Positions 16,184 to 38,373 of a stretch of DNA of 64,000 bases are shown piece by piece (positions within the stretch are counted from its first letter, which is position 1; every line of letters starts with the position of its first letter). The stretch is from Mytilus trossulus. Its lineage: Eukaryota. The DNA lies in the NCBI RefSeq assembly GCF_036588685.1, contig NC_086375.1, positions 40,858,001 to 40,922,000 on the forward strand. The letters run 5' to 3'. The position numbers and the translations under genes were made by a program. The notes beneath the pieces are model-generated. The model saw only the letters and a program-made list of their open reading frames with translations. It was not told where the DNA came from and searched no databases.

Positions 16184-18754
16184 ATGGACACAAAGCTGAA
16201 AGACGTTCATTCCGGGCATAAAGGAGCAATTACAAGACTTTGGAAGAACTTTGGTGAGATACGAGACCTTTCCGAAATAGAAATTGAGGACGTCACAGCT
16301 ATTTTAGATTCCGTGTTACAGAAAAGGGATATTCTTAAAGATCTGAATGATAAAATTGTGGAAGCAAGCTCGGATGAAGACGTGGTGGATAAAATTCAAC
16401 AAACAGATGAGTACATGTTTGATTTAGATTCAAAAATTCGTCAAATTAGAAAACTCATTAATCCCTCCCAATCGAAAAGTCAAAATTTACCCGTCAATAC
16501 TACAGTTTTTCAAGCTAGTCACGTTACTCCCTCTGATACACCCATGCATACCTTGATTTCGCCTACAGCAAATAGTGTACCCGCAAGCGACTCCTCTCAA
16601 TTGAACCCGCACGCCAATTGTTTCACGTCAACATCTCATGTACAATCGAATGCAGCCTCGTTTTATACAAGTAACCCCGCTATATCAGAGATTATTCCTG
16701 CTACGAACGCGTCTATGCATATTCCAAGTTTACATTCGTCTTCTAGCACAAATAATCAGTACCACAAATTACCAAAGTTGAACTTGCCTACGTTTAAAGG
16801 GAATATTTTAGATTGGCAATCCTTTTGGGATTCTTATGAGACATCTATACACACAAATCCAACGCTCAGCGACGCACAGAAGTTTAACTACTTTAAGTCA
16901 CTACTACAGGGAGAAGCGTTTCAGACCATATCAGGTTTTTCGATGAAAAACACTAACTACGGCAAAGCTATTTCGTTGTTACAAGAGAGGTATGGACAGA
17001 TACATACTATAATACAAACATACATGCAAGCTCTACTTGAGATTTCGCCGCCGATTTATACTTTAGTAAGCCTCCGCAATTATTATGACAAAACTGAAAC
17101 TTACGTACGAGGTCTAGAGTCACTCGGACAGACTACAGACACTTATAGTTCACTACTGGTACCCATTATTCTGAACAAGTTGCCCGCAGAAATACGCCAA
17201 AACCTAGCAAGACAACACGGACCGTCAAGTTGGAATTTGAAAGATTTAAGGAAGAGTATACTGAACGAAATTCAAATCATGGAGGCAGGACAAAATGCAG
17301 GTACTTATCTTGATTCTATAGACCACCAGTTTGCAAACTCATCTATAAGCACGTTTCACACAGGAAATAATTCACCACAAGGAAACACAACACACAACGC
17401 GAAGAAAAGCCAGCCCCGGAATATTAAGGAGAGACCATGTGTTTTTTGTAAAGACATACATCCACCAACATACTGTACCAAGGTTAGTGATCATAAAGCC
17501 CGCATAGCTATAGTCAAACGAGACAATTTGTGCTTAAATTGTTTAGGAAATCATCATGCTAATGAGTGTAAATCTAAAAGAACGTGTAGACACTGTGACA
17601 AGAGACATCATTCCAGCTTATGTAATGTAAGTAACCATGGTAACAGGGAAACTGCAAACAACCCAGATATACAGAATAATCAAAGTCAGAATCAATCTAC
17701 ATCTGTAAGTCTCATCAATACTACGGAAAACAAGGAAGATACGCACATTTTACATTCATCGACAAAGATGCGCACAACTGTGCTATTGAAGACGGATGTA
17801 GCTCCTGTATGGTCAGGTAGTATATGTACGGATACGAATATTTTATTTGATGAAGGTGCACAAAGATCTTTTTTAACAGATGATCTAGCGAAAACATTGA
17901 ATTTGAAAACTGAAGGAGTTGAAGTTGTACACTTATCGGCATTTGGAAAGGAAAACACCAGCACGAGAGAACTACGTAAATCCACCGTGCACATTGAAAC
18001 AGGAAATAGACGTAAATTTCCAATTAAAGTTCTAATTGTACCTACAATAGCAGTCCCACTTCAGAATCACATGCGCAACGTTAACCGAGATATGAACTAT
18101 CTAAAAGGATTGAGACTTGCTCATCCAGTTACCAAAGAAGATTCTTTTGAAATTTCTTTACTTATTGGTGCCGACTATTATTGGGATTTTATTGAAGACG
18201 AGATTATACGAGGAGATGGACCGACCGCGGTAAGATCAAAGCTTGGGTATTTGCTATCAGGACCCTTACAGTCAGGTATAGCACGTTCGTCTACGACAGC
18301 TGGCATCTTTAACTTACTAGTTTCGCACAAATCAGAAGAATTTAATTTGGAAGCGTTCTGGAAACTTGAATCGATAGGCATAGATTCATCCGAAAATCAA
18401 GAGAAAGAGACAAATTATTTGAAAGACTATCAGGAGTCATCAATTGAATTTCTAGGAGATAGGTATTCGGCGAAATTGCCATGGAAACAAGATTACGAAG
18501 AATTACCGTCAAATTATGATGTTGCAAAAAGGAGAACGGCGAATGTTATCAGAAGAATAGGCAAAGATGCGACCATGTTAAAGAAATACGGAGATATTAT
18601 AAAGGAACAGGAACGTCGCGGATTTATTGTGAGGGTTGATGAATTAGAACCAACAATTAACAAGGTACATTATATACCACACCATGCCGTTGTTAAGAAA
18701 GATTCCAGTACAACACCAATACGTATGCTTATCCAAGATCTTGGTAAGATTTAG
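16184..18754 (+). CDS. BEL/Pao Gag-protease and RT N-terminus (first part of a broken polyprotein)
   Basis: LPKLNLPTFKGNILDWQSFWD gag motif; CVFC..H....C, CLNCLGNHHANEC and CRHCDKRHHSSLC knuckles; ILFDEGAQRSF aspartic protease; YIPHHAV...TTPIR RT start. Confidence 0.9.
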   Translation: MDTKLKDVHSGHKGAITRLWKNFGEIRDLSEIEIEDVTAILDSVLQKRDILKDLNDKIVEASSDEDVVDKIQQTDEYMFDLDSKIRQIRKLINPSQSKSQNLPVNTTVFQASHVTPSDTPMHTLISPTANSVPASDSSQLNPHANCFTSTSHVQSNAASFYTSNPAISEIIPATNASMHIPSLHSSSSTNNQYHKLPKLNLPTFKGNILDWQSFWDSYETSIHTNPTLSDAQKFNYFKSLLQGEAFQTISGFSMKNTNYGKAISLLQERYGQIHTIIQTYMQALLEISPPIYTLVSLRNYYDKTETYVRGLESLGQTTDTYSSLLVPIILNKLPAEIRQNLARQHGPSSWNLKDLRKSILNEIQIMEAGQNAGTYLDSIDHQFANSSISTFHTGNNSPQGNTTHNAKKSQPRNIKERPCVFCKDIHPPTYCTKVSDHKARIAIVKRDNLCLNCLGNHHANECKSKRTCRHCDKRHHSSLCNVSNHGNRETANNPDIQNNQSQNQSTSVSLINTTENKEDTHILHSSTKMRTTVLLKTDVAPVWSGSICTDTNILFDEGAQRSFLTDDLAKTLNLKTEGVEVVHLSAFGKENTSTRELRKSTVHIETGNRRKFPIKVLIVPTIAVPLQNHMRNVNRDMNYLKGLRLAHPVTKEDSFEISLLIGADYYWDFIEDEIIRGDGPTAVRSKLGYLLSGPLQSGIARSSTTAGIFNLLVSHKSEEFNLEAFWKLESIGIDSSENQEKETNYLKDYQESSIEFLGDRYSAKLPWKQDYEELPSNYDVAKRRTANVIRRIGKDATMLKKYGDIIKEQERRGFIVRVDELEPTINKVHYIPHHAVVKKDSSTTPIRMLIQDLGKI

Positions 18755-21677
18755 ACTTCATCGTTATGCTATCACTACCGATATTGAGAAGGCTTTTTTA
18801 CATGTACATGATGTAGGACTCAACAAAGACGACCGAGATGTAACACGATTTCTATGGTTAAGTAACCCTTCAGACGTAACCAGTCCGTTAATGACGTATA
18901 GATTTAAAGTGGTACTATTTGGAGCAACTTGCTCACCATTTATCTTGAGCACTACTCTGTTAAAACATTTACAGCAAACCAACAGTAATACCGCAAGAAT
19001 GCTTGAACGTGATTTATATGTGGATAACATTTTGACTAGCATTGACAGAGAGAGTGTCACTTTAAACTTCTTTGAGCAAGCAAGGGAAATGATGAGTAAG
19101 GCAGGATTTAATTTGAGGTCTTGGAATTCGAACAGCATAAAGGTACGACAACAAGCAGTATCTCAGAAAGTTTTAGACACGGACACAGACACGAAAGTAT
19201 TGGGAATGAGATGGAATAGTCACACAGATTATATTTTCTATCCACACAAATGCAAGGAAGAAAGTACGACAAAACTTGTAACTAAACGAGAAATATTGAG
19301 ATATTCGTCAGGAATTTACGATCTGCTAGGATTACTGAGTCCAGTGACAATAACGGCTAAAATTTTGTTGCAAGAAATATGGAAACTTGGATTACAATGG
19401 GACAGTATAATAGAGGGAGACCTATGTAACCAATGGATCGGTATACGCGAGAATATTGAGACCGCTACACAAACAGTATTTCCTCGATATTATTTCGCTG
19501 AGACTACAGGATCAACACAACACAGTCTTCACATATTTGTTGACGCAAGTACAAAGGCATATGGTGCGGTAGGATATATATGCAATGGACAAGAGACAGC
19601 ACTTGTAATGGCAAAGTCACGAGTAGCTCCGTTAAAGGAACTGACACTCCCACAACTTGAGTTAATTGCAGCCGTAATCGGAGCACGCTTAGCTAAACAC
19701 CTTCAATCAACGTTGGAGTGCGAAAACATCACATTTTGGTCGGATAGTCAGATTGTTTTACACTGGCTTAAGTCAACAAAGACATTAAAACGTTTCATAC
19801 AAAATCGTGCGAATGAAATAAACGAATTGACAAAATCATGGGAATGGAAGTATTGCCCTACAAGCGATAACCCAGCTGATCTAGTAACACGAGGGATAAC
19901 AGCCGAACAATACACAAACAGCACATTATGGATTAAAGGTCCGCATTGGTTAACAGACAGTTCAACATACCCAAAATCAACATTAATCGACACGTCTTTA
20001 TCAGTTTTGTTAACAGAAAATGAAAGTACATGTAATAGCCAACCAAAGGACGATTCGATTTGTAAATTTGGAATTAACTTTATTATTGATATTGAACGTT
20101 ATTCGTCGTACCAGAAACTGTTACGTATCACGTCATATGTACTACGATTTATAGAAAACTGTAGAATTGAAAGGAGTTTAAGGACACTAGAACATTTAAA
20201 ACCAAGTGAATTATCCAAATCTGTTGAGTTATGGGTTCGAAATTGTCAGGAAACGGCTTTTGCTACGGAATATAACGCATTGAAGTTTAACAGTAAATCA
20301 CGGGACAGTTTACCGAGAATCAGACAATTAAGATTATTTCTTGACGACAAGAACATCCTCAGATGTGGAGGAAGAATCCAGAATGCACCCTTATCGGAGT
20401 CCACCAAATTTCCGTTTATCTTACCTAACGATCATACAATTTTTAAACTTATTGTATTAGATGCCCATGAAAGAATTTGTCATTCTGGAGTAAATGCCAC
20501 AATCGTACATTTGAGACAAAGTTTTTGGATATCCGCAATCCGACAGTTTGTTCGTAAAACACCTAGGAAATGTGTTACTTGTAGAAAGGTTGTTGGACAA
20601 CCATATGCAGCACCGGATCCACTGCCATTGCCTAAAATTCGACTACAAGAAGCTGGTCCTTTTACAGCTACAGGGATAGATTTCACAGGCGCATTACAAG
20701 TTAAAGATAACGAAAATGTCATAAAGAAAGTCTACATATGTTTATTCACTTGTGCCTCTACTAGAGCGATACACCTTGAAGTCGTTACAAATTTGTCAGA
20801 AGAAACATTTTTACAAGCTTTTCGGCGCTTTTCAAGCAGAAAATCTTTACCAAAAGTAGTTATGTCAGACAATGGTTCTACTTTTGTATCCGCGTCAGAA
20901 GACATCAAACAACTTTGTAATTCAAAAAAGTTAAAAGAGACATTATCAGCCCAAGGAATCGACTGGTTTTTCATCCCTAAACGTGCTCTATGGTTTGGTG
21001 GATGGTGGGGGCGTCTTATTGGAATGACGAAAACGAATTTGAAAAAAGTACTAGGAAAATCACTTGTAAATTTAGAGACTCTTCAGACAATCGTTACAGA
21101 GATAGAATCCGTCTTAAATGATCGACCCTTAACATATGTGTCTTCAGACCCGGAGGATCTTCAACCACTTACACCAGCTCATCTTCTTTATGGACGTAGG
21201 ATAAATACATTACCGTACATGGATACTCGTGAAATTGACATGTTTAATGAGACATTTATGAACAAAACAAAGTTTATCAAACGTGTTCAAAGACAATCAT
21301 TACTCTTACAACAATTCTGGAACAGATGGAAAACAGAGTATTTGACGTCATTGCGTGAATTCCACAAGAAAACGGGAAACAATTCCACTATAATCAGAAT
21401 AGGCGATGTAGTTCAGATTCATGATGAAAACAGAAGAATAATGTGGAAAACCGGGCTAGTGGAAAACCTAACCAAAGGAAATGATGGACTAGTTCGTTCC
21501 GCTATTATTCGAACCAAAACGGGAACCACATCACGTCTGATCGTCAAGTTGTATCCCCTTGAACTTTGTACAGACATCGAAACATCAAAGGACGAAGAAG
21601 CTCGACAGAAGAAAGAACCAAGTGCGACCACAAGCCGGATGTTGCCAAACCGAGAAGCAGCCAGAAGAGCCAGGTAA
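18727..21677 (+). pseudogene. BEL/Pao pol (RT, RNase H, integrase), frameshifted from gag by a deletion, integrase catalytic Glu lost
   Basis: DIEKAFL, FGATCSPF, YVDN; LHIFVDAS and WSDSQ RNase H; H..H..C..C zinc finger; GIDFTG, SDNG, and WWGRL where WWERL is expected. Confidence 0.88.
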
Positions 21678-21974
21678 AATATTAAAAAATGGACTAAATA
21701 ATGCGTAAACTATTAACTGTTCAGATTTATTATGGACTTTTACGAATATTCTTGATTTAATTGTCTAAGTGAACAAGTGCGCGGAAAATATAGACACTGT
21801 TAATTATCGAAATAGACTAATTTGGGATTTAATTGAAAGATAACTAGTCTGGAAGCAAGTGACTGTGCTTAAGTTTTAAGTTTAAGTTTTGAATTTGAGA
21901 GACAGTAAATTTAATTCATTTTTTTTTCTTGATTGTAATTTAATTTTGATATTTACTTTTCGCCGCCCGGAGAA

Positions 21975-22137
21975 TGTCGAGAATACCGCGGGAGTCAAGA
22001 CATCGCGTTTTACTGTTATGTATCTATGGTTGACGTCAGGGAGACGTCGCCTGAGCAGTTCTGATATAATGAAGTAAACGTCAAACTGTATGGTTGTTAT
22101 TGTTTTCTGTATACGATATTAGAAGTTAGCCTCGACA
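21975..22137 (+). repeat. 3' LTR (163 bp), preceded by a short purine-rich tract (cggagaa)
   Basis: Direct repeat of the 5' LTR, followed by TSD ATTGC. Confidence 0.95.
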
Positions 22138-22656
22138 ATTGCCTCCTTGGTCATATTTATTTAAAATCAAACTTCTGATTAAATTTGTATAAGATAGTAC
22201 AATAGAACACATTGGATTGAAATATATTTCATTAAGTTGTATTCCTTATCAATTAACGTACGTATTACGAAACCTTTTATCATATTAAAAATTGTCATTT
22301 TATCGGAAATTGTTTTCACATAAATAATTTAGTACGTTGTTCGGTAATTTTAACAGTATTTATTAACCAATATATGTAAATTCTAAATAAATTTTGACAT
22401 GCAAACGTAAAGAAATTAAAATCCTAATTAGCATCAATGATTAATTATTTTTTCAGCATGGGTGTAGATAGTAAAATTAAATGACGTTGTGGGTCATGAA
22501 ATTAATTTGACTAGTCCGAACATCACGAAGTGTAATTAAAAATTTAGTTTAATTCAGTATTTGCCTTTGCTAATTTGAATTTCAAGAAGAATGCATGTCC
22601 GTGAATACTTCGAAAAATAGTTTTAGTAGCATACCTACTTTTAACATAATACAGAA

Positions 22657-22723
22657 ATGGAGTTTTTGTCGATATCAACGTATTTAGTTTTCTTATTTAT
22701 AGCTATCTGCAATGCTCAAAGAG
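22657..22723 (+). CDS. Pif/LamG3-like secreted protein, exon 1 (signal peptide)
   Basis: MEFLSISTYLVFLFIAICNAQR then G|gtaagt; hydrophobic core with a CNA cleavage context; phase matches the next exon. Confidence 0.75.
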
Positions 22724-22840
22724 GTAAGTTACATATTTATTTATTTAATTATTATTATTCGTGTTAAAATCTTATAATATTTTTCCATGAATAAGGAGTT
22801 AGGTTTTTGTTTTATTGAAAATTATTAGCAAATCGCTTCG

Positions 22841-23117
22841 TGGTCAGCACTTTGGTGTTGACATGAATGTCAATTATATGGTCATTTTTATAAATTTCTT
22901 GTTATAAAACTTTGAATTTTTCGAAAAACTAAGGACGTTCTTATCCCAGGAATAGATTACCTTAGCCGTATTTGGCACAACGTTTTGGAATTATTGGTCT
23001 TCAATTCTCTTCAACTTTGTACTGGTTTGGATTTATAAATATTTTGATCTGAGCGTCTTATGTAGATGAAGCGCCCGTCTGGCGAACTAAATTATAATTT
23101 TGGTACCTTTGATAACT
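22841..23117 (+). mobile_element. Retrozyme-type repeat, near-complete monomer with the hammerhead core deleted
   Basis: Same body as 54101-54375. gagcgtc|ttatgtag lacks 11 nt (actgatgagtc) that include CTGATGA. Confidence 0.75.
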
Positions 23118-23659
23118 ACTGACTTCGAATATTCATAAATAAAGGCAACAGTAGTATACAGCTGTTCAAAACTCATAACTTCATGAACAAAAAACAAAAT
23201 CGGGGTAACAAACTAAAACCGAGGGAAACGCATTAAATATAAGAGGAGCGCAACGACATAATACTAAAATGTAACACACACAGAAACGGACCGAGCATCA
23301 GACAAAATCCCACGAGAATAACAAATATAACATGAAAACCAAATACATGAATTTGGGATAGACAAGTACCGTGACACGTCTTATCGCAATGTAAATTTGA
23401 ACTCAAAAATAAAAGAGAAAACAAACGACGCAACGTTAAAATGCAACACACACACAGAAACGAACTATAATATAACAATGGCCATATTCCTGACTTGGTA
23501 ACATGGTTTTGTGGCATGCCAAACCTCGCACTTTTATAGCCATGTGAAATATAACACCAAAATGACAACACAACACCCCAGGACTACAATATAAATAAAT
23601 TGGAGAACACAATTGACAAAAAATCACACGAACAACAGCCAACTAAAGGCAACAAGTTA

Positions 23660-23960
23660 AAGTAAAATTTCAATACGTCAGAAGTGCATTTTGTCCACAC
23701 AACATCTACTAGTGACGCCCAGATACAAAGGTTTGAAAGCCGAAACAAGTACAAAGTTGAACAGCATCGAGGACCAAAAGATCACAAAAGTTGTGCCAAA
23801 AACGGCAAGGGTTTTCTGTTGGTTACCAGAACATCCCTATTATTTAGAATAATTTATTCTTGTGCAAACAGTAAATTTTATAAAATTACTATACAAAAGA
23901 TGTACATGATAAAACTAGAGTAATAACTATTTATAGGAAACAACTGAAATACATTACATA
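23660..23960 (-). mobile_element. Degenerate reverse copy of the retrozyme-type repeat
   Basis: Reverse-complement similarity (gtgacgcccagat, aaacaagtacaaagttgaa, aaagttgtgccaaa); core decayed. Confidence 0.55.
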
Positions 23961-24201
23961 ACCAGACATTTGCATCAAATAAAACATTTTCATATGAATA
24001 ATTTTAATCACAACTTTTTTCAACGTCTTATATCCAAAGATTTTTAAAGTACCCTTTACCTTGAATTCTTTAAACAGCGTTATGACAATGAGTTGTTGCA
24101 ATCAATTATTCAACAGTAATCACGGCAAGAGAAAAGCTAAAATTGCTTATACATTACTCATATATGTGTTTCAATTCTATCATTAATGCTTGTCGTTTCA
24201 G

Positions 24202-25293
24202 ATGCACTTCCAGATCTTAATTCATTAGATTTATTCAAAGACCATCCTATGGATATTGGATCATTAATACCTGAAAGCTTATTAAGAGATTCATCCTTAC
24301 CTTCATCATTAATGGGACGTGACATTCCAACACTGTCGCCACTAACAGGACGTGACATTCAAACACTGTCGCCACTTACGGGACGTGACATTCAAACACT
24401 GTCGCCACTAATGGGAAATGACATTCAAACACCGTCGCCACTACTAGGACGTGACATTCAAACAAGTAATGTAGCCACAACAGAAACAGTGAAATCTGTT
24501 CCGCTTTCTGCAACAAAGCCAGCTACTAAAGCTTTTTTCAGTATGAGAAATGCTGAGATTGGACAGCCCACACAAGTTCAAGCCAACACAACTAAAATAA
24601 CCGTGTCTCCATTTCCGGCAACAGTGGCTCCCTTTCCAGAAACAGTGCCGCCATTTAAAGCGACAGAAATCGTTAAAACTATACTAACATCTGTAGCTAC
24701 GCCACCAGTCAAGTCTTCAATCATTTCAGAGACAATGGTGTATAAGACAAAATTAAAACCCAGCTCATCCGATTTTAATGGGAGAGTTGTTCATGAATTC
24801 CTACCTCAAAATATATGGCGTGACATGAAAACACAATCTAATTCGTTATCAAATGACTTTAAAGATGGTTTTAATGTAGCAGGTTCTTCAATTTTAGTAT
24901 CTGATGTTTTCAAACAGCCTTGGAACCGACCAAATTTAAACGGAGGCTCTTTCATTCTACAAAAAAGAATAAATAAATTAAAACAAAAGAAGAAAATTAG
25001 AAAACAGATTATCAAAAACAAGCAGCCATCGATAGAGCAATTAACAAATATTTTAAAGCGGGAAAACACGCTTCTGAATATAGCACTTGGATTAATCAGT
25101 AAAGACAAGTCTTATTTAAAAGATTCATTATTTAGTAAAAACAAATGTCCGTATAAACCACATTCTCTCAATAAAAAGTTCTTTATGGAGAAGGTAAAGG
25201 ATAATGGATGGATTAAACGGAGGTGTGCCCTTGGAACAGCATATGACCAAGATACATGTGAATGCTCAATCAATATTGGATATCAACCTGAAG
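24202..25293 (+). CDS. Pif/LamG3-like protein, exon 2 (11-aa repeats, Thr/Pro-rich and Lys-rich regions, divergent ChtBD2)
   Basis: tttcag acceptor and G|gtaagt donor, 1092 nt. C-terminal CPYKPH...RRCALGTAYDQDTCEC is the Pif-type chitin-binding motif. Confidence 0.85.
24315..24464 (+). repeat. Coding minisatellite, 33-bp unit (GRDIQTLSPLT), about 4.5 copies
   Basis: ggacgtgacattcaaacactgtcgccacta-like units start at 24315, 24348, 24381, 24414 and 24447. Confidence 0.9.
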
Positions 25294-26217
25294 GTAAGTG
25301 TCGAAATCATTCCAAAATAAAAGGGTTAACAAAGTCACCATATTATACGCTTGCTTAGGAATAAAAGATTATAAAATTGAGAATGGAAAATGGGAATGTG
25401 CCAGAGACAACAACCCGACCATAGAGCAGACAATAGCTGAAGGCCATCAATATATCTTCAATGCAAAGATCAAAACCAACACCCGGAGAAGCCTATCAGT
25501 TCGCCCCTAAACAAATATCTATACTACAGTCATAATGGACGTAGACTAAACTCCGAATTAAAGACACGAAACTAAAATTAGAAATCATACAAACTAACAA
25601 AGGTCAGAGGCTCCTGAATAGGAACAGGCGTAAGAATGCGGCAGGGTGAAACATGTTTTTAGAGATCTCAACCCTCGCCCTATACCTCTAGCCAATGTAG
25701 ATGAAAACAAATGCACAACAATACGCATAGTTAAACTCAGTTTAAGAGAAACGAAGTTCGACGACTTTTATAGCTGACAATGCGGCATGGGCATCTCACC
25801 TTGTTGTAGGCTGTATAGTGGTCTAAGGCTGTCAATTTCTGTGTCATTTGGTCTCTTGTAGAGAGTTGTCTCTTTTGGCAATCATACTCTTTCTGCATTT
25901 ATAGATGAGATTTATTCTATTTACAAATATGCATTCATATACTTCTGAACTAGAAGACTGACACTTGCGCGACCATAGAACTTACATGCTGGCAACTATA
26001 TGTCACCGAATTCTATTTGAGCTCAGTTGAAAACAAAAATAATCTTGAAGGCAAATGGTTCATAACTATTTAAGTATTGTAACATATATATCGTATCTTC
26101 GATTATTCAACTATGGAATACCCTTGAAGCTAAGACACAACTTAGAGACATTGTCAACTCATTTGTTATTAATCTTGATGTGAGATCTTTCAATCATTAT
26201 AGATTTTCTTTTTTAAG

Positions 26218-26579
26218 GCTGTAAACCTGAAGTATTTATGGATTTTAACAAAGGAGCTGTCGTGGATTTATCCTCAAATGAAATACCATTTGGAGTAGAA
26301 GGTGTTGTATCGCTAAGCGACTTGGCCTATTTCAATGGTGCTAGCAGAATCATTATATGGAGATATACAAACTTTGACTTCCAGCATGCAATGACTTTGA
26401 AATTCAGGTTCAAGTCGGAAGCAAAGTCAAGAAGTAAACCTCATCCTCTCATCACAAACTGTGGAACAGGACAAGAAGAACCTTCTTTTGGTGTCATCTT
26501 AAACAGCTTTGCAGATGTCTTGACATTCTTTGTGAAAACTACAGAATCTGAAATAAAATTCCTGACTTTCAAAATAAAT
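26218..26579 (+). CDS. Pif/LamG3-like protein, exon 3 (LamG/ConA-like domain N-half)
   Basis: ttttaag acceptor. CKPEVFMDFN...AYFNGASRI...LITNC...PSFGVIL, then AAT|gtaagt. Confidence 0.85.
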
Positions 26580-26635
26580 GTAAGTCGTAGGTACTTATAA
26601 TATGATAAAATAGTACTACAGTGAAGTCTGTATTA

Positions 26636-27404
26636 GATGTCGGTCATTTACAAACGTTTCAGCCGTATCGTATACGTTGACGTATCCGCATCTGCAGATA
26701 TATCAAAAAATATTATGTGATCCCGAGCTTATTAATAAGACTATACTTCATTTAAGAAAAAAACTAATTAGAGTCTTTTCGAAACAATCAAACTTACACT
26801 TTCAATCTTTGTGATAGAGGGGTGTTTCGTAAAAATGAAATAAGGGGTTTTATCAACTACTTTTACATGCCCTTAAAAAGGAGCCAATGAAGGGCAGGTA
26901 CACGAATATCGTACACAATCCTTTAATACTCTAGTTAAAAAATATTTCAAGATCTTATATGAATAAACACCCAAAAAAATCAAATGTATTACTTATATAC
27001 ATGTAAGGAACTTTGAATATTGTTCATTTGAGATTTTATCATTAAAGGTAATAGAAAGTACTGAGTATCACTCTATTTGTCAATTAACAATTTGGTTCTA
27101 CGTGAGCACAAATTCATACACAAAAAAACAAACGATTTTACCGTATTCACTCCTATCAAGCCTGTAAACTGTTCCAACTATCCGGAATATCTTTAAAAGT
27201 AGGGTTACATATTCCACAAAAACTCGATATTTCCTTATAGTTTAGTAAATTTCTGCATTAGAAATTAATCAGTCGCCCATTTGCATATTATTGAAAATAC
27301 ATAAAATTAAAGCTCGGGATCATATACTGTGATTTGGTATATCTGCAGATGCGGATACGTCAACGTATATCATACGGTTGATACGTCTTTAAATGGCCGA
27401 CCTC
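26636..27404. mobile_element. Non-autonomous DNA transposon with ~95-bp TIRs and TATTA duplication, nested in a TA-flanked CAGT...ACTG MITE (~26619-27712)
   Basis: gatgtcggtcattt...gacgtatccgcatctgcagatat...gatcccgagcttt is mirrored at 27309-27404; tatta on both sides. Confidence 0.85.
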
Positions 27405-27552
27405 TATTAAGAGACCACTCAAGGTAGAGCAAAAACGTGTCTTTTGATACAGGTTCAATCTATATGAAATACTTTACTTTTTGAAATTTTGGATCCTCAA
27501 TGCTCTTAATTCTACTTTGTACTTGTTTGGCTTTATAATTATTTTGATATGA

Positions 27553-27596
27553 GCGTCACTGATGAGTCTAATGTAGACGAAACGCGCGTCTGACGT
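27553..27596 (+). ncRNA. Intact minimal type I hammerhead ribozyme, family 1 (in retrozyme fragment ~27481-27629)
   Basis: GCGUCA-CUGAUGA-GUCUA-AUG-UAGAC-GAA-AC-GCGC-GU-C-UGACGU: all core nucleotides, perfect stems I and II, GUC cleavage triplet. Confidence 0.88.
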
Positions 27597-29450
27597 ACTA
27601 AATTATAATCCTGGTACTTTTGATAACTAATTACAGAGAGATATAATATTAATGGTCTTATTACACAGGTTTTTAGCTTTATACAGGTGGTTTCTTAAGC
27701 ATTTTTGACTGTAAATGCATAAACAGTTTAATTCAAAATACAAATGTGTGTCTTCTTGAAAAATATAGGATTCGATTAAAGTTTTACTAAGCTTATTATG
27801 CAATAACGAATCAAAGGCGATCGAGATATTTGTTATAATATGGCTCCTAGTATGAACATTTTTTAAAAGTATGAATAATTGTGTCAGTTGTAACGAAAAT
27901 GTTTAGTACTGTTTTGCATTCAAAGATTGTCCAACAATAATGAAAAATGCCATACATTATTTATATTTAAACAATACGGCATTCATACAACATTCACTTT
28001 TGACAAATGCAATGTAAAGTATATTTTAACCTGATAATTGGTATAAAAGTATGTAAATAGGTGTAAGTAAGACGGTCATTATAGAGACAAGGGATTACAT
28101 TGTCGACAAAAGTGCCTATAAATGGATTAATAAACCCTGATAAGGGATTTGGTATTAATTTTGCTACTTTTCGTAATGTAAAGTATGGTATCTGATGTGT
28201 CAAATAATTAAAACAGTCCTAGGGTATTTTTCATTAAAACAGATTATGAAAATTGATTCTTTTACTAAAATGTTCATGACTGAGAGTATACTTCTCGTAA
28301 GATTTTTTCTGTGAGATGAGTTACTAACTTTTAACACGATAAGATCGTAATGTTGTATAACAATAACAGGTTTTTGTGTTTTAGCATTATTAATCAAATT
28401 TGCTTGACAAATGTTCTGTTTATTATGCTTTGTTTGTGGTTTGTTTGTCTTCCCTCAAAATCTAATTTTAAAATAGTTAACCACGCTTTAATGGAAATTG
28501 CTTTCACCCACACCCAGTGACATTCAGTGACAATTATTTTCCCTTTGTCCCTTTACTTAATATTTAAAAATATTCTATGCTTGCCAGTGATTTGAGTACG
28601 AAATTGATTTTGAGGAAATGTGTTATTTCCTATGCAAAATAGGATCAAACAAATGATCAAATAATTAAGACAGCAAAAAAGACATATTGTTTATTACAAA
28701 TTCATGTGTTTGTAAAAGATATACTTATGAATTCAAAAACATGTAAGTTATAAGTACTTACAATTTATTACTTCGTTACCTTTTCCGTCTTTATTAGACT
28801 CGCATTGCATACGTGATTAATTAACCTTGTCTGGAGTTTATAAGTCTTGTTTTAGATTATTTTTATTATATTTAATTTTAGAAACCGGATTAAGACGTAT
28901 AGATTGCTGCAAATTAAATTACCGTCCTTACCTAACTTGGTTGTACAATTTTTCTTTAGAATTGAGAAACGTGTGTGGTCATGATGTTAATTTCATCAAA
29001 TCACCCGGATCATGCTTTCACATATTTTTTTATCTATTTTATTTTTTTAGTAAATGATAGGTCTAGTATTTATTTAATGCATAACTATGTGCAAAGTGGT
29101 CGTTTCAGGACAAATATTTTATTTAAATGTTTATGTTCTTGACTTCAAAGTGATAAAACAAAAGTCACTTTTGCATTTTAATTTTAAGGGACGGACAAAA
29201 ATCATATGCTTTACAATTGAGAGGGCCAAATTATTGCTCTCGTCAACCTTTTTCACTTATATGGTGGGTTATCTTGTTCCAAGTCAGGAATATTACAGTT
29301 CTTGTCCATTCGTTTTTATGTGTTTTGTCATTTGATTTTGCCATGCGATTATGAACTTTCCGATTGGATTTTCTGAGTTCAGTATTTTTGTTATTTTAAT
29401 TTTTAAATTTTTTAAAGTGTCTGAAGTAAAACTATTTGTATATTTTACAG

Positions 29451-29541
29451 CCAATGGAATGGAATGATGTTATATATTCGTACGACGGAGAATATTTGAC
29501 AGGCAAAGTAAATGGTTTAGAAAAAAGAGAATCTGTTAATG
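29451..29541 (+). CDS. Pif/LamG3-like protein, exon 4
   Basis: ttttacag acceptor. PMEWNDVIYSYDGEYLTGKVNG, the LamG W..V...YDG motif; G|gtaatt donor. Confidence 0.85.
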
Positions 29542-30616
29542 GTAATTGTATATATTTTTTTAATCTTCTAAATTATTTCAATAAAGCAGAATCTATAAAG
29601 CAATATTTCCCCCCATAAAAAAACATATAAACTTTCGATCTTCGATGATAAACAAGTAAATAAGTATGAATAGCAAAGCAGAATACACAATCTAAGCAAA
29701 AATGCAGTTTAAACAATACGTCAAAAAAATATCAGAAAATATTCAAATTTCTCGTATCAAGCTAATGTTTGTAATTTGAGTGACCAGAAGTCATAACTTT
29801 ACTATAACTTTCTCATTGAGATTCCCCATACAGCAAAGGAGTAAACCGTGAGAAACTAATCCTTATCTTTGATAAACTAGAATTTTCCATGAAATGAATT
29901 GTCTAAAACATTTTTTCGAAACAATTTGTTCACAAAACAAAAACATGTTGAGGAAAGAAAATGATTTCAAAACAGATTACGACAGCACAATATGTGATGG
30001 GGAATAAAAACATTAAATGCATAACAAGAACATCAAAGAGATATGAAATACCCATACTATTTAAACATGGCGTCGAATTTCATTAAAATAAAAGATTTGA
30101 ATGTCTGAACTTACAAATAAAAACTTGTCTAGCATCGAACAATAATATACTTGACAAATACCTAAACACACTCTTAGGCTTATCAAAATATCATTGATTT
30201 ATCTATGTAAATGTTATTATTCATTTTGCATGTTCAAAGGTAATACAAGGTGGATTTACTTGATGATATATTGAAATTATTGTCCATAATTATACTCTAC
30301 TCAATATTGTAAAAGTGTCCATATAATATGGTCGTATTGTTGAATAATTCCAGTACTCCACGAGATACATTTTTCCATTCCTTACATTGATTCTTTAAGC
30401 AATCAAACTTGGAATTCAAAGTTTCTGTGAAACTCCCTATTCAAAAACTATGTGAATCAGATGGAAATCTATAATTCAAATAGTCTGCTGTCGGGGTTCA
30501 TTCATTCAAATTCCTCTCATGCAAAGGTGTATACAGCATGGGATGTCTCAATTACTTACACAAGAATTCTAACTTCTTAGCTGAAATACAAATGAAAGAA
30601 AAGTTCAACTCTATCA

Positions 30617-30770
30617 AAGAGGGACGAAAGATACCAAAGGGACAGTCAAACTCATAAATCTAAAACAAACTAACAACGCCATGGCTAAAAATGAAAAAGA
30701 CAAACAGACAAACAACAGTACACATGACACAACATAGAAAACTAAACAATAAACAGCACGAACCCCAAAA
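30617..30770 (+). repeat. Interspersed repeat fragment; related fragments at ~6215-6430 and 32580-32650
   Basis: gacgaaagataccaaagggacagtcaaactcataaatc...aaaactaaa...cacgaacccc. Confidence 0.5.
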
Positions 30771-31151
30771 ATGTCCAATGTTGTTATGTTCTGACAAACT
30801 TCAAATCAATGGCTGTAGCCGCTTCATTACTTCGTTCATTTTTATCACTGGATTGTTGGGTTTGTTTTTACCTGACCTTCATGTAAAGGCTGCAACTCTA
30901 GAATCATGATCTTTTGGTTATATTTGTTTACACTATTCTTTCCGTTTTCATTTCTTCTTTTTATTCTAACAGCGATGTTCGTGCTGCTAAGTCTGAAGTT
31001 TTTTGTTTTATGTTAATTTCATTTTCCTTTTTAAGGTTGCCGTTTATTGCCGTTCATTTCCATAGAAGAGCTTACATATTTGCTTTATAAATGTTTAAAA
31101 TGTTAATAACGCATATGTATTGTTGCTAATGATAATTCCCTTATTAAACAG

Positions 31152-31231
31152 GAAATGTTGAGATACGATCAGCAGAAATGATGTTTGGACACTGCGAAAG
31201 ATATGGATATTTCAAAGGTTTCTTGGATGAC
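31152..31231 (+). CDS. Pif/LamG3-like protein, exon 5
   Basis: GNVEIRSAEMMFGHCERYGYFKGFLDD|gtaagt, the LamG F.G.lDD motif. Confidence 0.85.
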
Positions 31232-31635
31232 GTAAGTAACTGAAAAATAAAATCACCTCTCAAGTTGTTAGTTGATTTCGACTTTAAACTTATTCGAGCG
31301 GCCACTAATGAATCTGGTCTAGCCGAAACCCGCGTCTAACGTAATTAAGTTATAATAGAACACAAGTGAAAATTTCAAGTAAAAATGTTGTTATTTTCTA
31401 TAAGACTACTGTACACCATGCATGAAAGGACCAGCTAAGCCTGATATATTAAATGGGCTTTATTCAGAAACTAGGTACATATTATTAGTTGTTTTCTTGC
31501 AAATATATAACTGATTGTCCATTTCTTGGAAAGGATAACTTAATTGCTGATTTTGCGAACTGGACGTACTCTCTCTCTAAGATATAAGCGATTAAACTGA
31601 CAAGAAACCTAATGTATGTACAATGAAGCGTAAAG

Positions 31636-31958
31636 TAAAATTGAGAATGGAAATGGGGAATGTGTCAAAGAGACAACAACCCAACCAAATAAAAAAACCA
31701 ACAGTAGAAGGTCACCAACAGGTCTTCAATGAAGCGAGAAATTCCCGCACCCGGAGGCGTCCTTCAGTTGGCCCCTACACAAATATATACTAGTTCAGTG
31801 ATAATGAACGCCATACTAATTTCCAAATTGTACATAAGAAACTAAAATTAGAATAATACAAGACTAACAAAGGTCAGAGGCTCCTGACTTGGGACAGGCG
31901 CAAAAATGCGGCGGGGTTAAACATGTTTGTGAGATCTCAACCCTCCCCTATACCTCTA
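31636..31958 (+). repeat. Abundant interspersed repeat; copies at ~9416, 25374-25745, 50145-50400, 58570 and reverse at 45180-45350, 53873-54075, 61417-61630
   Basis: aaaattgagaatggaaatggggaatgtgtcaaagagacaacaacc... shared at high identity. Confidence 0.85.
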
Positions 31959-33082
31959 AGGTTATCGATCATAAGAAAGTGGTTCATGCTATCCATCGAA
32001 TAATACTACAAAAACAGAATTGTTATAAAGTGAATGATAAATGCAACACTTCCAATCTTATAATGCTCTGATGGTAATTGTTTGTAAGGAAGAAAATCTG
32101 TGGAAACATTTCAAATGCCTAGAATAACAAGGTTGAGCACAGATAAAACAATGCCAGTAATTCAAACGACATATACTCAAATCCTAGAATAAAATCAAAG
32201 TAAAATACAAAACTGCGGGAATCGCATGAACTACAAAAGGAGCCAGACCAAATGTATCAACGTGGCAAAATTCTCCTGATATGTTTGCGTCCCCCAATGT
32301 GAATGCAGAAAAAGCTAAAATTTCAGAATTAGGAATAGGACGCAATCGATCTAATAGAAGTTCAGACAACTTAGCTAGCAGCTTCAGACCTAAGACTGTT
32401 TAAACATGCTATGAAGTTGACATACTGACATATCGTATCGGTCACCTCATGCGTGACAGTAACTGTAAAGTTAATGTGGTGTCAAAATCATAAAAATAGA
32501 AGTACGTCAATGATGTACATAAAACAGCAGAGCCAAGATAATAATTCAAAAGGAAAATCGTGTAAATTTTTAAAAAAAAAAAGGCAAAAGATACCAACAG
32601 GATTTGTAGTTCATACTAGTTAGTCAAAGAGAAACTGTCAAAGTCGTGGCAAAATGTCTTCTTTTATCATTTAAATCCTGTCCATTTGTATTATTTACCT
32701 TAATGAGTCATATTTAACTTGGGTGGTCACATTTTCTCGAACACGGAGTGAGCGATAAATAAAGTAGAAGGGATCAACAATATCATACTTTAACTGGATC
32801 TTAATAACTATGTGTTTCATAATAACAAGTAAAACCCAATCTTAGTATATTTAAGGAAGTGGTTAACATATTTAATTTAATCAAGTCCAACTGAAAAATG
32901 CCATATTGAAAGTGAAAATTAAGGCACTCAAATAAGAAATAAACATGCACAGAGGTATGGAGAATATCAACTTCCAAGTGTGTCTTACTTATTTGCTAAA
33001 TAATGGAACGTACTTGTGGGGCGACATTTTTATCTGTCAAAGAACTTCACTTACAAAATGTAACGTATTGGCGGGAGCAACA

Positions 33083-33375
33083 TTTGTATGCCCCATTGAT
33101 GGGCATTATGTTTTCTGGTCTGTGTGTCCCTTCGTTCGTTCGTGCGTCCGTCCTTACGTCCGTTTGTCCGTCTATCCCGCTTCAGGTTGACGTTTTTGGT
33201 CGAGGTAGTTTTTGATGAAGTTGAAGTCCAATCAACTTGAAACTTGTTCAATATGATATGACCTTTCTAATTTCAATGCTAAATTGGAAATTTTATCCAA
33301 TTTTCACGGTCCACTGAACATGGAATATGATAGTGCGGATGGGGCATCCGTGTACTTGAAACACATTGTTGTTTT
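33083..33375. mobile_element. Helentron/HINE (DINE-1-like) non-autonomous element
   Basis: Terminal hairpin atgccccattgatgggcat, (gtcc/gttc)n microsatellite, subterminal ggggcat inverted repeat and T-rich ends. Confidence 0.6.
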
Positions 33376-33993
33376 TTATCAAGTAAAAAGGTTTGCATTA
33401 TATACTTATATTCTGCAATTCAAATATTACTTTTGGTTTATAAAACTTGAAAGAACGACACTTTAAATGTCCAGGTCTGAAAACATCAAATTTATCATTT
33501 ACCCAGAATGATACCTTATAATTTAAACATTCATTAACTTTAAAGATAATTATCATTTGTAAACCTTAATCTATATTTCATGTATAATATTTTACCTGAT
33601 TAGTATGTCTTTTGTGACATCTGACGACATGAAATAATGTTGTTTACTAACAAAGAAAGTATTGTCTCCGCCCAGGCATAATAATTACCATGAATAATGA
33701 AACATTTGCCAAGTATATACAAAATGTGACTAAAAATATGTGTCTGTCCAGGCAGTTACATTAAATCAAAAACAAATATTCTACTTTTTACATAAAACAA
33801 ACAAAACATACAAATATCTATATGTGCGGTAGATTTACATTATGAAAGTAATTGGCTTACTTCTGAAAAAAGTTTAAAAATATGAGCATGTTTTTTTTCT
33901 CCTTTTTATTTTTGTTTCCTTTATTTAATATTTTAATTTTTAAAATCAATTCGTCTCATATTTATCATGTTGTAATTTTTAATATTTTTACAG

Positions 33994-34029
33994 GTGAAAA
34001 TATACAATTGTGTACCTAAAGAAATATGA
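33994..34029 (+). CDS. Pif/LamG3-like protein, last exon (VKIYNCVPKEI*)
   Basis: tttttacag acceptor, phase 0; completes the DD-V.IY.C.P LamG terminus. Total CDS 1728 nt, 575 aa. Confidence 0.8.
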   Translation: MKIYNCVPKEI

Positions 34030-35326
34030 GCATTTGCATTTTACTACGGGATAGAAAAACTGGACTAAGTTCGGTGATGAACTTCTTGTAACAACGACGT
34101 TGAATAAAAACGGAAATTAGCGACAATCTTATATTGCCAAATTCCAGATTGCATTGCAAATACTTTTGAGTAATTGTAAACTAACTTATTTATATCGTTC
34201 ATCTGCTAATTTTGCAAATTACCTTATTTTTACTTATGTGTTAGTTCAATGTAAATGTTTATTAACGTAATACTGTAAACAAAAGCAATTTAGTTTGTAT
34301 TGTCTACAAATATAACATAGGTTTACTTAGAGATTGATCTACCTAAAGTGAAAAGCATGTTACTAGTACTAGAAGACTAGATAATGTCACTTTTAAATTA
34401 ATGATTAACGTACATTGTATAAGGAAGTACGTGCAAATGTACATGCTGTGTGTTAAATGATTGTATTTTAAATGTATAATATTATTTGTTTATCTTCTTT
34501 ATTTGAATAAGGCACAGCTCTTGTTTTATTATGTACTTTAAATATCGCTATTTAGATCAAAGCAGTTACTTTCACTACTGTTTTGATGGAAATCAATCAT
34601 AAATCATGTATACAAGTTTAAGTTTCTATTGATATAAGTAGATAGTAGAACACTTGATAAAAATGTTTTTTAAATGACATTTCAAGATAGTACAAGTATG
34701 AAGAATAAAACTAAATCATAATACCTTGTTGATTGGTCTTTCAATATTGTTTAATCAATATGATTTAGAAAAATATGTATAGCATAAATGTCTAATGATA
34801 TTTTGTTTTGTGTCTATTTGAATACAAGTTTGCTTATTCAGATGTAGAATATGTGTACAATCTTTGGGTTCTCTTTTACTGGTGATATTTGATATCACAG
34901 TTTATCATAGCTAACACCCCAAGACAATACAACAGAAAAAATGCCTGTTAATATAAAGATAAGGGAATCCACAAATGATATTTTTCTTAAACAAATCGTT
35001 TCATTATACAAAACAAACGGCTATCATAACAAAAACTATAAATCAGTACAGACCCTAGACACAAAGATAAAATACACTTGCCAATACTGTGGATTCTTTA
35101 TTATTCGTTGGAAACCAATTTTCGTGGATTTCGTAGGTACATATTAACAACGAAATTAAATGTTCAACGAATCACAAATTTAATATAGGATTGTATGCAG
35201 ACTTAAGCAAAATAAAGAAATTGAATGTCCATGAACATGCAAGTTTTCCAGAACCACGAAAACTGGTACCCACGAAAAATAAACAAATCAAAAGTATTAC
35301 AGTTTGGCTTTATAAATATTTTGATA

Positions 35327-35370
35327 GCGTCACTGATGAGTCTTATGTAGACGAAACACGCGTCTGGCAT
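35327..35370 (+). ncRNA. Type I hammerhead ribozyme, family 1, core intact, stems I and III partly mutated
   Basis: GCGUCA-CUGAUGA-GUCU-UAUGU-AGAC-GAA-AC-ACGC-GU-C-UGGCAU. Confidence 0.72.
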
Positions 35371-36923
35371 ACTAAATTAAAACCCTGGTACCTTTGATAA
35401 CTACAATGTATTAATACTTTCTAAAACACACACAGTCCAAAACTTAATATCACTTACCACTCAGTACAATGATAACTAGACGATGACACCTTTCAAACAG
35501 AATTTTACAGCTGTGTTAGAATGTTATAATGTTACTTTTATAAAGCTCTTATTGACCTATGCTTAAAGTATAATGAACTAGACTATATTGTATCTAATCG
35601 TTGGTTGTATATGTCGAGTTTCGTGAACAGTTGTTTAGTATAAATTAAAAAGCTTTTGTTTTGTTTGGTTATAATCATGTCTGGGCTGTGTTTTTTAGCG
35701 TACTGCCCCTCATAAAGGAACATCTTATTTGCAGTAAACAAAGCTATTAGTTGCTTCCTTAGACAGACCTTAGCCTCATTAATATTTGTTATAATTTGCG
35801 GTTCTAAGCTTAACTAACTATATCAAAAGGCCCAAACTTTTATTGATAATAGTTCTGCAAAATGTTAGCTTAGCTTTACGATTTGTAAATATACAGATGC
35901 ACGACTTTTGATTTTTTTATTTGAGAAAAAAAGTTGTTTTGAATTTTTCTTGGAGTTCTGATATTGTTGTTATTTTACTTTTTTTATGAATTTGAAGCAT
36001 CCAAAACCATTTTTCTAGATTTACAATCACCAGGAACACTCATAGCACTCGGTTTGTATTTGTAACCTTGATTTGCTTTTATAATCAATTTTTCTTCGAT
36101 TTAAACATTTATAAACTACTGCTTATAGTATTGCCCTAGTTTATCATCTTATAAATGCATTTTTTTACCTCAAATGTAAACAATCTACACATGAAGAAGA
36201 AGTTTTGGACAGGATTTAACTTCAAATAATACAATGCCACCTACCTTTGTTAAAACCCTACTAGTACAGATTAATGTTCAAAACGAAGATTTAATTACTA
36301 TTCCTTTATTATAAAATACTTATCACAGTTTATTTCACATTTTGCATTTCAAACAACAAATTTCAAGATATTGCTACATGGATATAATGGTTTTAAAAAA
36401 ACTATATTGCAAAAGGCTGTTCAAAACTTGGCTGTATAGAATGGGTGTCAAGGGTACATGATACAGTTACAGTGGAGGTCATGATATTGCTAACATAAGG
36501 TATATTTTTTTCACAACATCAAACTGTGACATATCCAGGAAATATGTACTGGTATTTTACAACTGATTTTTATCATTGAGACTAGTTTAACTTAAATACG
36601 AGTTCATGTACCCTTCTTTCTTACAATTTTTTCAATTTTTGATAACATATTAAAATTATTTGTGCCAATATTTATGAAAAAGTCATTTCGTCTGGTCTAA
36701 AACTGGAGTAATATCTTGCTGAAGCTGCCATTACACCTGTTTCTTAGTTGCGTACAAATACAGCTAATATTTAAAGACACTAAACAGTTATCGTCTATGT
36801 AAATGCTAAGTAATGACAATGGCTCACATAGATTTAAACAGCCTAATTAAAAATAAATTAAATCAAATTAAATTACATTCTCCTATATAAATTGCACAAA
36901 ATTACCCTATAAAAGTCCTACAA

Positions 36924-37109: not shown

Positions 37110-37477
37110 CTTCAAATATAAATATATTGATATTAAATATTAGACTACCTGGCATAAATGAAAAGGCTACATATAATTAAGAGAATTTAAGAAAAAAAAA
37201 AGAAAAAAAAACATATTTTTTATTTTTTTAAATAACAACAAATAGGTGATTACAGATTTTTGAAACATCATTTTTATTTCCTCAGGTGGACATAATAATA
37301 GTTTTTTTTTTCTCTATAATATAGATATTTTTAAAACCTATATATGTTTACAATGCAAAGTTTCAAAGACAGGTCAATAAAAAAAACTTTAAATCAAATC
37401 TGTAAATATTGAATGAAGGCATCTATGCGCACCCTAGGCCAGAAAAATTTAACTGAAGTACGACCATATCCACATAC

Positions 37478-37710
37478 CTTTTCAGGGATAGGATTTTCTT
37501 TGAATCTTTTAGCACATATAATGAATATATCTGGAGCTGGTTTACCATGCTTAACCTCTGGATCATCTGTGCTTACTACAGAATGTAAGAACAAACTAAA
37601 GAAATCTTTGTGATTTCTGGTCTTAAGATCCATCAAATGTTGACTGGATCCTGTTGCTATGGCAATGGGAATGTTGTGTTTGTGAAAATGTCTCACCAAT
37701 TTTTCTGCAC
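37478..37710 (-). CDS. PUDP: Pseudouridine-5'-phosphatase, exon 4
   Basis: [22 protein letters not shown]...[15 protein letters not shown]: HAD motifs II and III. Confidence 0.92.
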
Positions 37711-38373
37711 CTATTTATAAAAAAATAAAGGATTACCTTTAAGATAAATTGCTAACAATTCTGGTGTTCTAAAATTGTAATGGAAATGCTTTTTATGTTC
37801 CTAAACATGCAAAAAAATATCTTTTAAAAATATATTTGTGTTCAGGAGGAGGTGTGATACATGTTTTTTAAGCCTTAATTTTGGACCTTAAAATTGAAAA
37901 AAAAAATCCAGACTTTTAAATTAAGTTACATTCATTTATTGATGAATATGCTAATACAATATACAATGAGGACTAGAAAGTTCACTTTTGATGACACTAT
38001 CACATCATAAACATTTTGAAAATCAGATTTTATCAAAATGAATAATTTCATTCTGACATACAGAAATTTAGTTTTCTGACAAAATAAAAATGAACAGATA
38101 CTTTATCCGCAAAAAGATCTTTTACACACATTGAAATTTGTAAAATCTACATTTTGTAACAAAATACTTTTGAATAAAGCCTCTTCACTCATTTGATAGT
38201 CATGAAAAGATCTCAAAATGTAGCTAGTTCCACCAAATAAGAAATTATTCTATTCTGTAGTTTCTGAGGAAAAAGCGCACATTTTACAAGCCAATCCTAT
38301 TAAGCTTCTGACCAAATACAAAATAATTCTGTACTAAAATATTTATTATTTATATCTTTATTATTATATATAC

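What the first reader, a model, noticed from the sequence alone, without database searches (positions are those of the whole stretch)
27553..27596. Fully intact self-cleaving hammerhead motif on the sense strand of a host-gene intron
Seen: a perfect type I hammerhead (stem I CGUCA/UGACG, CUGAUGA, 5-bp stem II, GAA, 2-bp stem III with palindromic GCGC loop, GUC site) in intron 3 of the Pif-like gene, in the transcribed orientation. Established: minimal type I hammerheads with palindromic stem III mark Penelope-like elements and non-LTR retrozymes (reported in mussels as abundant circular RNAs) and cleave efficiently as dimers. Inference: the monomer could be activated by pairing in trans with retrozyme RNA, cutting the pre-mRNA. 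That would be a route for ribozyme-bearing RNAs to modulate host genes.
Basis: partly seen in the sequence, partly recalled or inferred. Interest (0 to 1): 0.7.

Follow-up and report, generated by a model that had tools for sequence, protein, structure and literature searches.

The report
Mussel retrozyme fragment in an intron
The self-cutting RNA motif is really there, on the transcribed strand of an intron, but it is part of a broken 152-base copy of a known mussel jumping element with over 12,000 matching motifs in this genome, so it is likely an ordinary passenger and not a regulator of the gene.

Summary
The hammerhead at 27553-27596 is real (Rfam RF00163, 34.1 bits) and lies sense in intron 3 (26580-29450) of a six-exon LamG-domain gene; that intron is spliced out in contigs of 4 of 4 runs laid. 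It is not a stand-alone motif. It sits in a 152-bp, 5'-truncated copy (27478-27629) of the published Mytilus non-LTR retrozyme (~354-bp unit), nested in a decayed MITE. Its 32-nt core occurs 12,143 times in the genome, and nine family copies lie in this window. The copy is young (7 changes in 152 nt), so an intact core is expected by chance. The dimer premise is partly wrong: it is not a PLE-type minimal hammerhead, and a published single-repeat clone cleaved at about 0.1 per minute. Trans pairing is chemically possible for isolated 44-mers, but in full context the predicted bound fraction is at most 0.13% at 1 uM. Slow cis cleavage of some pre-mRNA is the only plausible effect; it is untested. 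The scan has reported the same situation for other copies in this genome. Verdict: known element, ordinary copy.

The parts
27553..27596 (+). Type I hammerhead ribozyme motif, all core positions intact; predicted cut 27590/27591
27478..27629 (+). 5'-truncated copy of the ~354-bp Mytilus non-LTR retrozyme: about 113 nt before and 39 nt after the cut site; lacks the GC-rich hairpin that follows in full units
   Evidence: 91% identical to a tandem unit; ends
27473..27477 (+). Left copy of a possible 5-bp target-site duplication (4 of 5 letters match 27630-27634); inferred
   Evidence: alignment to 9 empty copies of the host MITE
27630..27634 (+). Right copy of the possible target-site duplication; inferred
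26619..27711 (.). Host ~200-bp MITE (CAGT...ACTG ends, TA on both sides), split by two later insertions; the retrozyme sits in it
   Evidence: 41 genomic matches to its 3' part; empty-site alignment; joint 27470>27632 in contigs of 2 of 4 runs
26636..27404 (.). Second insertion in the same MITE: element with ~100-bp terminal inverted repeats (85%), flanked by a 5-bp direct repeat
26580..29450 (+). Intron 3 of the host gene (GT..AG, 2,871 nt); the 3' splice site is 1,860 nt past the cut site
22657..34029 (+). Host gene: coding exons 22657-22723, 24202-25293, 26218-26579, 29451-29541, 31152-31231, 33994-34029; 575 aa; low-complexity region plus C-terminal LamG
35302..35403 (+). Second copy of the same family downstream of the stop codon; hammerhead 35327-35370 with core intact but a non-palindromic loop III

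Best explanation
This is a 152-bp, 5'-truncated copy of the known Mytilus non-LTR retrozyme that lies inside a decayed MITE in intron 3; it was likely written in by target-primed reverse transcription with a borrowed Penelope-class enzyme, and its hammerhead likely cuts in cis too slowly to matter much to the host gene. Shown here: identity to the tandem ~354-bp unit, fixed 3' end with variable 5' ends across copies, nesting in an older element, very high copy number, low divergence. Inferred: copying starts about 39-41 nt after the cut site on an uncut multimer or a ligated circle (the insert spans the cut site) and stops early; the core is intact because the copy is young, not because it is selected; any cleavage competes with 1,860 nt of transcription and splicing and at most lowers the output of this allele somewhat.
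For: 12,143 exact matches to the 32-nt core (one free position) in G000, 0 for the reversed control. Tandem arrays with a 354-357-bp period. Same hammerhead and flanks as the printed M. galloprovincialis 375-nt retrozyme (PMC4918200 Additional file 11; compared by eye). 22 of 30 fetched copies end at +39 to +45 after the cut site, with 5' ends from -110 to -353; 7 run on as arrays and 1 was not parsed. 21, 25, 32 and 34 contigs of four runs diverge at 27629. Empty host-MITE copies lack the insert. 6 substitutions plus one 4-nt insertion against the majority of 27 close copies, so the chance that 15 core positions are unchanged is about 0.5 (my arithmetic). Published rate about 0.1/min at 37 C in vitro gives 5% cut in 0.5 min. 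Slow intronic ribozymes did not affect splicing (Fong 2009 as quoted in PMC10919898). The gene has intact orthologues in other Mytilus species.
Against: No cleavage or expression was measured for this allele. With k = 0.1/min and 2-5 min to splice, 18-39% would be cut, which is not negligible. The copy is predicted to reach the hammerhead fold about as easily as family members (6.8 kcal/mol, against medians of 8.0 for 15 array copies and 6.85 for 14 dispersed copies), so it is not shown to be inactive. The four runs with the spliced intron are not shown to carry this insertion. Retrozymes are depleted in introns in Xenopus (preprint 10.64898/2026.07.22.740005), which suggests some cost. The TSD is imperfect (4 of 5).
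Confidence: 0.85

Rival explanations
1. The copy is an accidental cis-acting attenuator: the monomer hammerhead cuts a sizeable share (over 20%) of nascent transcripts before intron 3 is spliced, which would lower expression of this allele.
For: Intact core in sense orientation. Single-repeat clone active at about 0.1/min. 18-39% cut if splicing takes 2-5 min. This copy has A27593, which turns a G.U of stem I into a Watson-Crick pair. The intronic CPEB3 ribozyme affects mRNA levels (PMC10919898 passages).
Against: The rate is from T7 transcription at 37 C. Mussel hammerheads lack most conserved loop 1-loop 2 contact nucleotides, which are needed for efficient cleavage in vivo. Upstream sequence 27520-27540 is predicted to out-compete the hammerhead fold by 6.8-9.9 kcal/mol in 300-500-nt contexts (model without tertiary contacts). 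CPEB3 has 9.9 kb to run at t1/2 2-3 min; here it is 1.86 kb at t1/2 about 7 min.
Confidence: 0.1
2. One reading: abundant retrozyme RNA (circle or self-cleaved linear monomer) pairs in trans through the 8-bp palindrome and the 6-bp stem I and would cut this pre-mRNA, and others with sense copies, at GUC.
For: Self-complementary 8-mer. The isolated 44-mer pair folds into the active dimer topology. Naked enzyme-substrate duplex -22.1 kcal/mol. Circles are abundant in mussel tissues.
Against: Opening costs 10-16 kcal/mol for the retrozyme RNA plus 6.9 for the intron site at 37 C; the net is -4.4 to +0.8 kcal/mol (to +3.8 at 18 C) and at most 0.13% bound at 1 uM, for 10 of 10 monomers. The hammerhead is predicted to be sequestered in 7 of 7 circles (5.1-9.6 kcal/mol), as the paper notes for some mussel circles. 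A partner is not needed for activity. The target is a short-lived nuclear intron.
Confidence: 0.03
3. The motif has been co-opted as a conserved intronic ribozyme of this gene, like the amniote intronic hammerheads or CPEB3.
For: Intact, sense, and its exact 40-nt variant occurs only 6 times in the genome.
Against: Young copy nested in a MITE. Both variant letters are shared with other copies (5 of 27 and 6 of 27). The gene's other introns hold three decayed copies in both orientations.
Confidence: 0.02

Closest known systems
Mytilus galloprovincialis non-LTR retrozyme (Cervera and de la Pena 2020, PMC7229834, main text parts 2-4 of 6 read, supplement unreadable; PMC4918200 Additional file 11 read)
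   Same: 350-390-bp tandem unit with one type I hammerhead, thousands of copies, low GC (0.38); same hammerhead sequence and flanks as the printed 375-nt element.
   Different: This copy is a lone 152-bp 3'-terminal fragment with one hammerhead, so it cannot release a monomer or circle; it lacks the downstream GC-rich hairpin.
Penelope-like element minimal hammerheads (PMC4209133, part 1 of 4 read)
   Same: Type I topology, palindromic helix III region, dispersed single motifs from truncated copies.
   Different: Minimal motifs have no helix III or loop 3, a 7-8-bp helix II and an extra unpaired base; this one has 4-5-bp helix II, 2-bp helix III with tetraloop, and no adjacent RT ORF.
Intronic CPEB3 ribozyme and synthetic intronic ribozymes (PMC10919898 passages; Fong 2009 only as quoted there)
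   Same: Self-cleaving RNA in sense orientation in an intron, where rate competes with splicing.
   Different: CPEB3 is single-copy, conserved for over 100 My, faster and farther from the next exon; this is a recent repeat insertion.
Dispersed monomeric retrozyme derivatives in Xenopus (bioRxiv 10.64898/2026.07.22.740005, parts 1-3 of 5 read)
   Same: Monomers scattered over chromosomes; 42-44% of copies lie in introns; PLE origin proposed.
   Different: Vertebrate study; orientation within introns and effects on host genes were not reported in the parts read.

Membership tests
Type I hammerhead ribozyme | Conserved core CUGAnGA / GAAA / UH with helices I, II, III; helix I open | tested here: met
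Type I hammerhead ribozyme | Self-cleavage at the UH site | not testable with these tools
   No raw reads were offered; contigs cannot show RNA ends
Metazoan non-LTR retrozyme (Mytilus) | Family occurs as head-to-tail repeats of 350-390 bp, one hammerhead per unit | tested here: met
   354-357-bp period in arrays
Metazoan non-LTR retrozyme (Mytilus) | Sequence identity to the described element | tested here: met
   Hammerhead, upstream and downstream segments match the printed 375-nt element by eye; GenBank circles MN642551-76 not compared
Metazoan non-LTR retrozyme (Mytilus) | GC below 50% | tested here: met
   unit GC 0.38
Metazoan non-LTR retrozyme (Mytilus) | Target-site duplication longer than 4 bp when present | tested here: inconclusive
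   5-bp candidate with one mismatch
Active retrozyme locus | At least two hammerheads in tandem, so that a monomer or circle is released | tested here: not met
   One hammerhead, 152 of ~354 bp; a derivative of the family, not a source locus
PLE minimal hammerhead | No helix III/loop 3; long helix II; extra base before helix II | tested here: not met
   against the definition
PLE minimal hammerhead | Located in a pseudo-LTR flanking an RT/GIY-YIG ORF | tested here: not met
   No ORF of 80 aa or more on + between 26600 and 29078; flanks are a MITE
Co-opted intronic ribozyme | Conserved at the orthologous site across species | not testable with these tools
   No relative genomes held; the empty-site joint in two runs may come from paralogous MITEs

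The most novel reading that the evidence does not exclude
Self-cleaved linear retrozyme monomers keep a complete enzyme strand at their 3' end and act as natural trans-cutting hammerheads on the many host pre-mRNAs that carry a sense copy of the 15-nt target, this intron included, so that one abundant parasite RNA tunes many genes at once.
Probability: 0.03. Interest if true: 0.75.

Novelty: already known. Interest (0 to 1): 0.1.

Why it matters
As it stands it matters little: it is one more copy of an element described in 2016 and 2020. It would matter if sense intronic copies measurably cut host pre-mRNA, because the genome carries over 12,000 intact cores and each insertion polymorphism would then be a small expression variant. 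That is a genome-wide question that this single copy cannot answer, and the trans version is disfavoured by the folding calculation.

Tried and rejected
1. RNA ends at 27590/27591: the run search listed no holder on record as RNA and only contig sets, so ends could not be tested; no RNA holder listed is no evidence either way. 2. Whether the sequenced animals carry this insertion: among the pieces shown (32 of about 2,300) none bridges either junction; the joint 27470>27632 in X10 and X15 (24 and 32 letters on the short side, several differences) fits paralogous empty MITEs as well as an empty allele; inconclusive. 3. Idea that the GC-rich segment at +55..+95 of the unit is an antisense hammerhead that blocks the active one: rejected; in the two circle folds printed it forms its own hairpin and the hammerhead pairs with upstream sequence instead. 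4. Search for a PLE with this hammerhead in its pseudo-LTR: none in 14 regions of 9.9 kb round GIY-YIG ORFs (3 unrelated hammerhead-like hits); these were 14 picks from 149 matches. 5. The 'P(no change)' values printed use a rate inflated by alignment-end columns and by counting a 4-nt insertion four times; I used 7 events in 152 nt instead. 6. First exon model was off by one base; corrected. First junction script matched nothing because of a pattern error; corrected. 7. PDB search with exon 3: nothing at E below 0.5. 8. A sense/antisense bias test was not run: no annotation is available and nine copies in one window have no power. 9. PMC5785218 (dimer cleavage of PLE hammerheads) is not held; the supplement of PMC7229834, which holds the mussel hammerhead alignments, could not be read and may bear on the helix III and tertiary-contact claims. 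Rows left out: L023 (overlaps L022); L013 (duplicate of L012); L001 (self) from the majority comparison.

Full report
Observation. The motif is at the stated place with the stated anatomy and scores 34.1 bits against Rfam Hammerhead_1, just over the gathering threshold. It is not chance. The host gene has six coding exons on + that give an open 575-aa frame, identical to a database Mytilus protein with a C-terminal LamG domain and no VWA or chitin-binding Pfam hit, so 'Pif-like' holds only loosely. Contigs from 4 of 4 runs laid join 26579 to 29451 at GT..AG, so the motif is sense in intron 3, counted from the first coding exon. The runs are RNA by guess only.

What it is. The motif is part of a repeat. 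Nine family copies lie in this window at E below 0.01. A 155-bp query drew 4,506 candidates in the genome, of which 40 were scored, all 93-94% identical apart from the self-hit. The 32-nt core with one free position has 6,217 + 5,926 = 12,143 exact matches, with 0 for the reversed control. Many lie in head-to-tail arrays of 354-357 bp. The window copy matches the last ~113 nt before and 39 nt after the cut site of such a unit at 91%. The hammerhead and flanks match, by eye, the M. galloprovincialis 375-nt retrozyme printed in PMC4918200 Additional file 11. PMC7229834 (parts 2-4 read) describes the family: about 5,000 hammerheads, 350-390-bp repeats, abundant circles.

How it got there. Alignment with nine other copies of the flanking element shows that 27478-27629 was inserted into a ~200-bp TA-flanked MITE (26619-27711), with a possible 5-bp duplication of 4 matches in 5. 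The same MITE holds a second insertion (26636-27404). Of 30 fetched copies, 22 end at +39 to +45 after the cut site while their 5' ends range from -110 to -353; 7 continue as arrays and 1 was not parsed. These copies were chosen for likeness to the query, which forces them to reach +39 but not to stop there. Contigs of four runs also diverge at 27629 (21, 25, 32, 34 contigs). A fixed 3' end with variable 5' truncation fits reverse transcription from an internal start, as shown in vitro for an anole PLE (PMC11167929, parts 1-2 read). Because the insert spans the cut site, the template was likely an uncut multimer or a ligated circle (inference). Earlier notes of this scan name Naiad elements as the helper. 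I checked this in part: GIY-YIG ORFs of 885-1,056 aa with an N-terminal nuclease are present; one such family shares a 29-nt stretch with unit positions +13..+41 (86-93%); six loci share a GC-rich segment with unit +61..+107 at weak E-values of 0.1-0.2, and five of these six fold into a similar bulged hairpin. That is suggestive only. The window copy ends before the hairpin.

Why it is intact. Against the majority of 27 close copies it has six substitutions and one 4-nt insertion. At that rate 15 core positions stay unchanged about half the time (my arithmetic). Its two hammerhead variants, A27570 and A27593, are shared with 5 and 6 of 27 copies; the exact 40-nt combination occurs 6 times in the genome. 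Three other copies in this gene's introns are decayed, in both orientations.

Does it need a dimer? By PMC4209133 (part 1 read) minimal PLE hammerheads lack helix III; this motif has the ordinary metazoan layout, for which that paper says a weak helix III impedes monomer cleavage. For the mussel family the later data differ: a cloned single repeat cleaved at about 0.1/min during transcription, and the authors state that most invertebrate motifs cleave as monomers (PMC7761336 passages). In context it is not favoured: the hammerhead costs 5.1-9.6 kcal/mol to form in 7 of 7 circles, and the trans complex of the intron site with 10 of 10 monomers has a net of -4.4 to +3.8 kcal/mol over two temperatures, at most 0.13% bound at 1 uM. 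These are nearest-neighbour estimates without tertiary contacts, Mg2+ or proteins, and they count full opening of both partners. The same model also penalises the cis fold in array copies (median 8.0 kcal/mol) of a family that cleaves in vitro, so it overstates inactivity.

Effect in cis. The 3' splice site is 1,860 nt past the cut. At 0.1/min, 5% is cut in 0.5 min and 18-39% in 2-5 min; at 0.01/min, 0.5-5%. The 0.5 min assumes the mammalian elongation rate quoted in PMC10919898; the mussel rate is unknown to me. That paper, quoting Fong 2009, says fast intronic ribozymes lower splicing and slow ones do not. Mussel hammerheads lack most loop-loop contact nucleotides. A small effect is therefore likely and a moderate one cannot be excluded. 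The spliced contigs do not settle it, because those animals are not shown to carry the insertion.

Novelty. The element, its hammerhead, its circles and its presence in introns (42-44% of copies in Xenopus) are in print. Trans cleavage of host pre-mRNA by retrozyme RNA did not show in the listings, and 'in trans' has 0 occurrences in PMC7761336; this is a limited search. The scan has noted sense intronic copies of this family in calpain, tyrosinase and Ig-domain genes of the same genome with the same conclusion; those notes are unreviewed and are not counted as support.

Verdict. Observation confirmed; interpretation partly supported; an ordinary truncated copy of a known retrozyme. Interest 0.1.

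Noticed in passing
window 16023-22140 (+): BEL/Pao LTR retrotransposon with 137-bp LTRs 99.3% identical and two overlapping long ORFs with DUF1759, protease, RT, Peptidase_A17 and integrase hits. It ends about 500 bp upstream of the host gene's start codon.
   Followed up: partly
window 35302-35403 (+): Second core-intact hammerhead of the family (31.3 bits), 1.3 kb past the stop codon, with one change that breaks the loop III palindrome. The contig pieces shown imply transcript ends at or before about 34440, so it is not shown to lie in the 3' UTR.
   Followed up: partly
window 5482-5648 (+), 15274-15373 (-), 22835-23123 (+), 23667-23910 (-), 31260-31348 (+), 54102-54373 (-), 3350-3413 (-): Seven more retrozyme fragments, all with damaged or cut-off hammerheads in the six that were viewed; 3350-3413 was not inspected. 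The one at 54102-54373 directly follows an exon of a minus-strand GFO/IDH/MocA gene, in sense, and breaks off inside its hammerhead.
   Followed up: partly
L072:5054-5082 and 9654-9682; L049, L050, L054, L066: An N-terminal GIY-YIG (Naiad-type) PLE family shares 29 nt at 86-93% with the last bases of the dispersed retrozyme copies (+13..+41), about 390 nt before its long open frame.
   Followed up: partly
L061:3627-3670, L065, L072:5542-5585, L069, L049, L053: GC-rich segment similar to retrozyme +61..+107 in a predicted bulged hairpin near the start of these PLE frames; agrees with earlier scan notes, weak E-values.
   Followed up: partly
L064:7832 (-), L067:476 (+), L074:4800 (-): Three other hammerhead-like motifs near PLE ORFs, unrelated in stems to the retrozyme.
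   Followed up: no
window 46500-47603 (+): 367-aa uninterrupted frame with an OTU-like cysteine protease domain (E 8e-12) and an N-terminal repeat.
   Followed up: no
window 238-11740 (+); 37394-37714 (-); 54341-60665 (-): Exons of an Ig-domain gene, a HAD hydrolase and a GFO/IDH/MocA oxidoreductase.
   Followed up: no
window 25361-25701, 31636-31958, 61414-61642 and others: A second abundant dispersed repeat family, strongly represented in the contig sets.
   Followed up: no
window 8385-8557: A run of 173 N, far from the finding.
   Followed up: no
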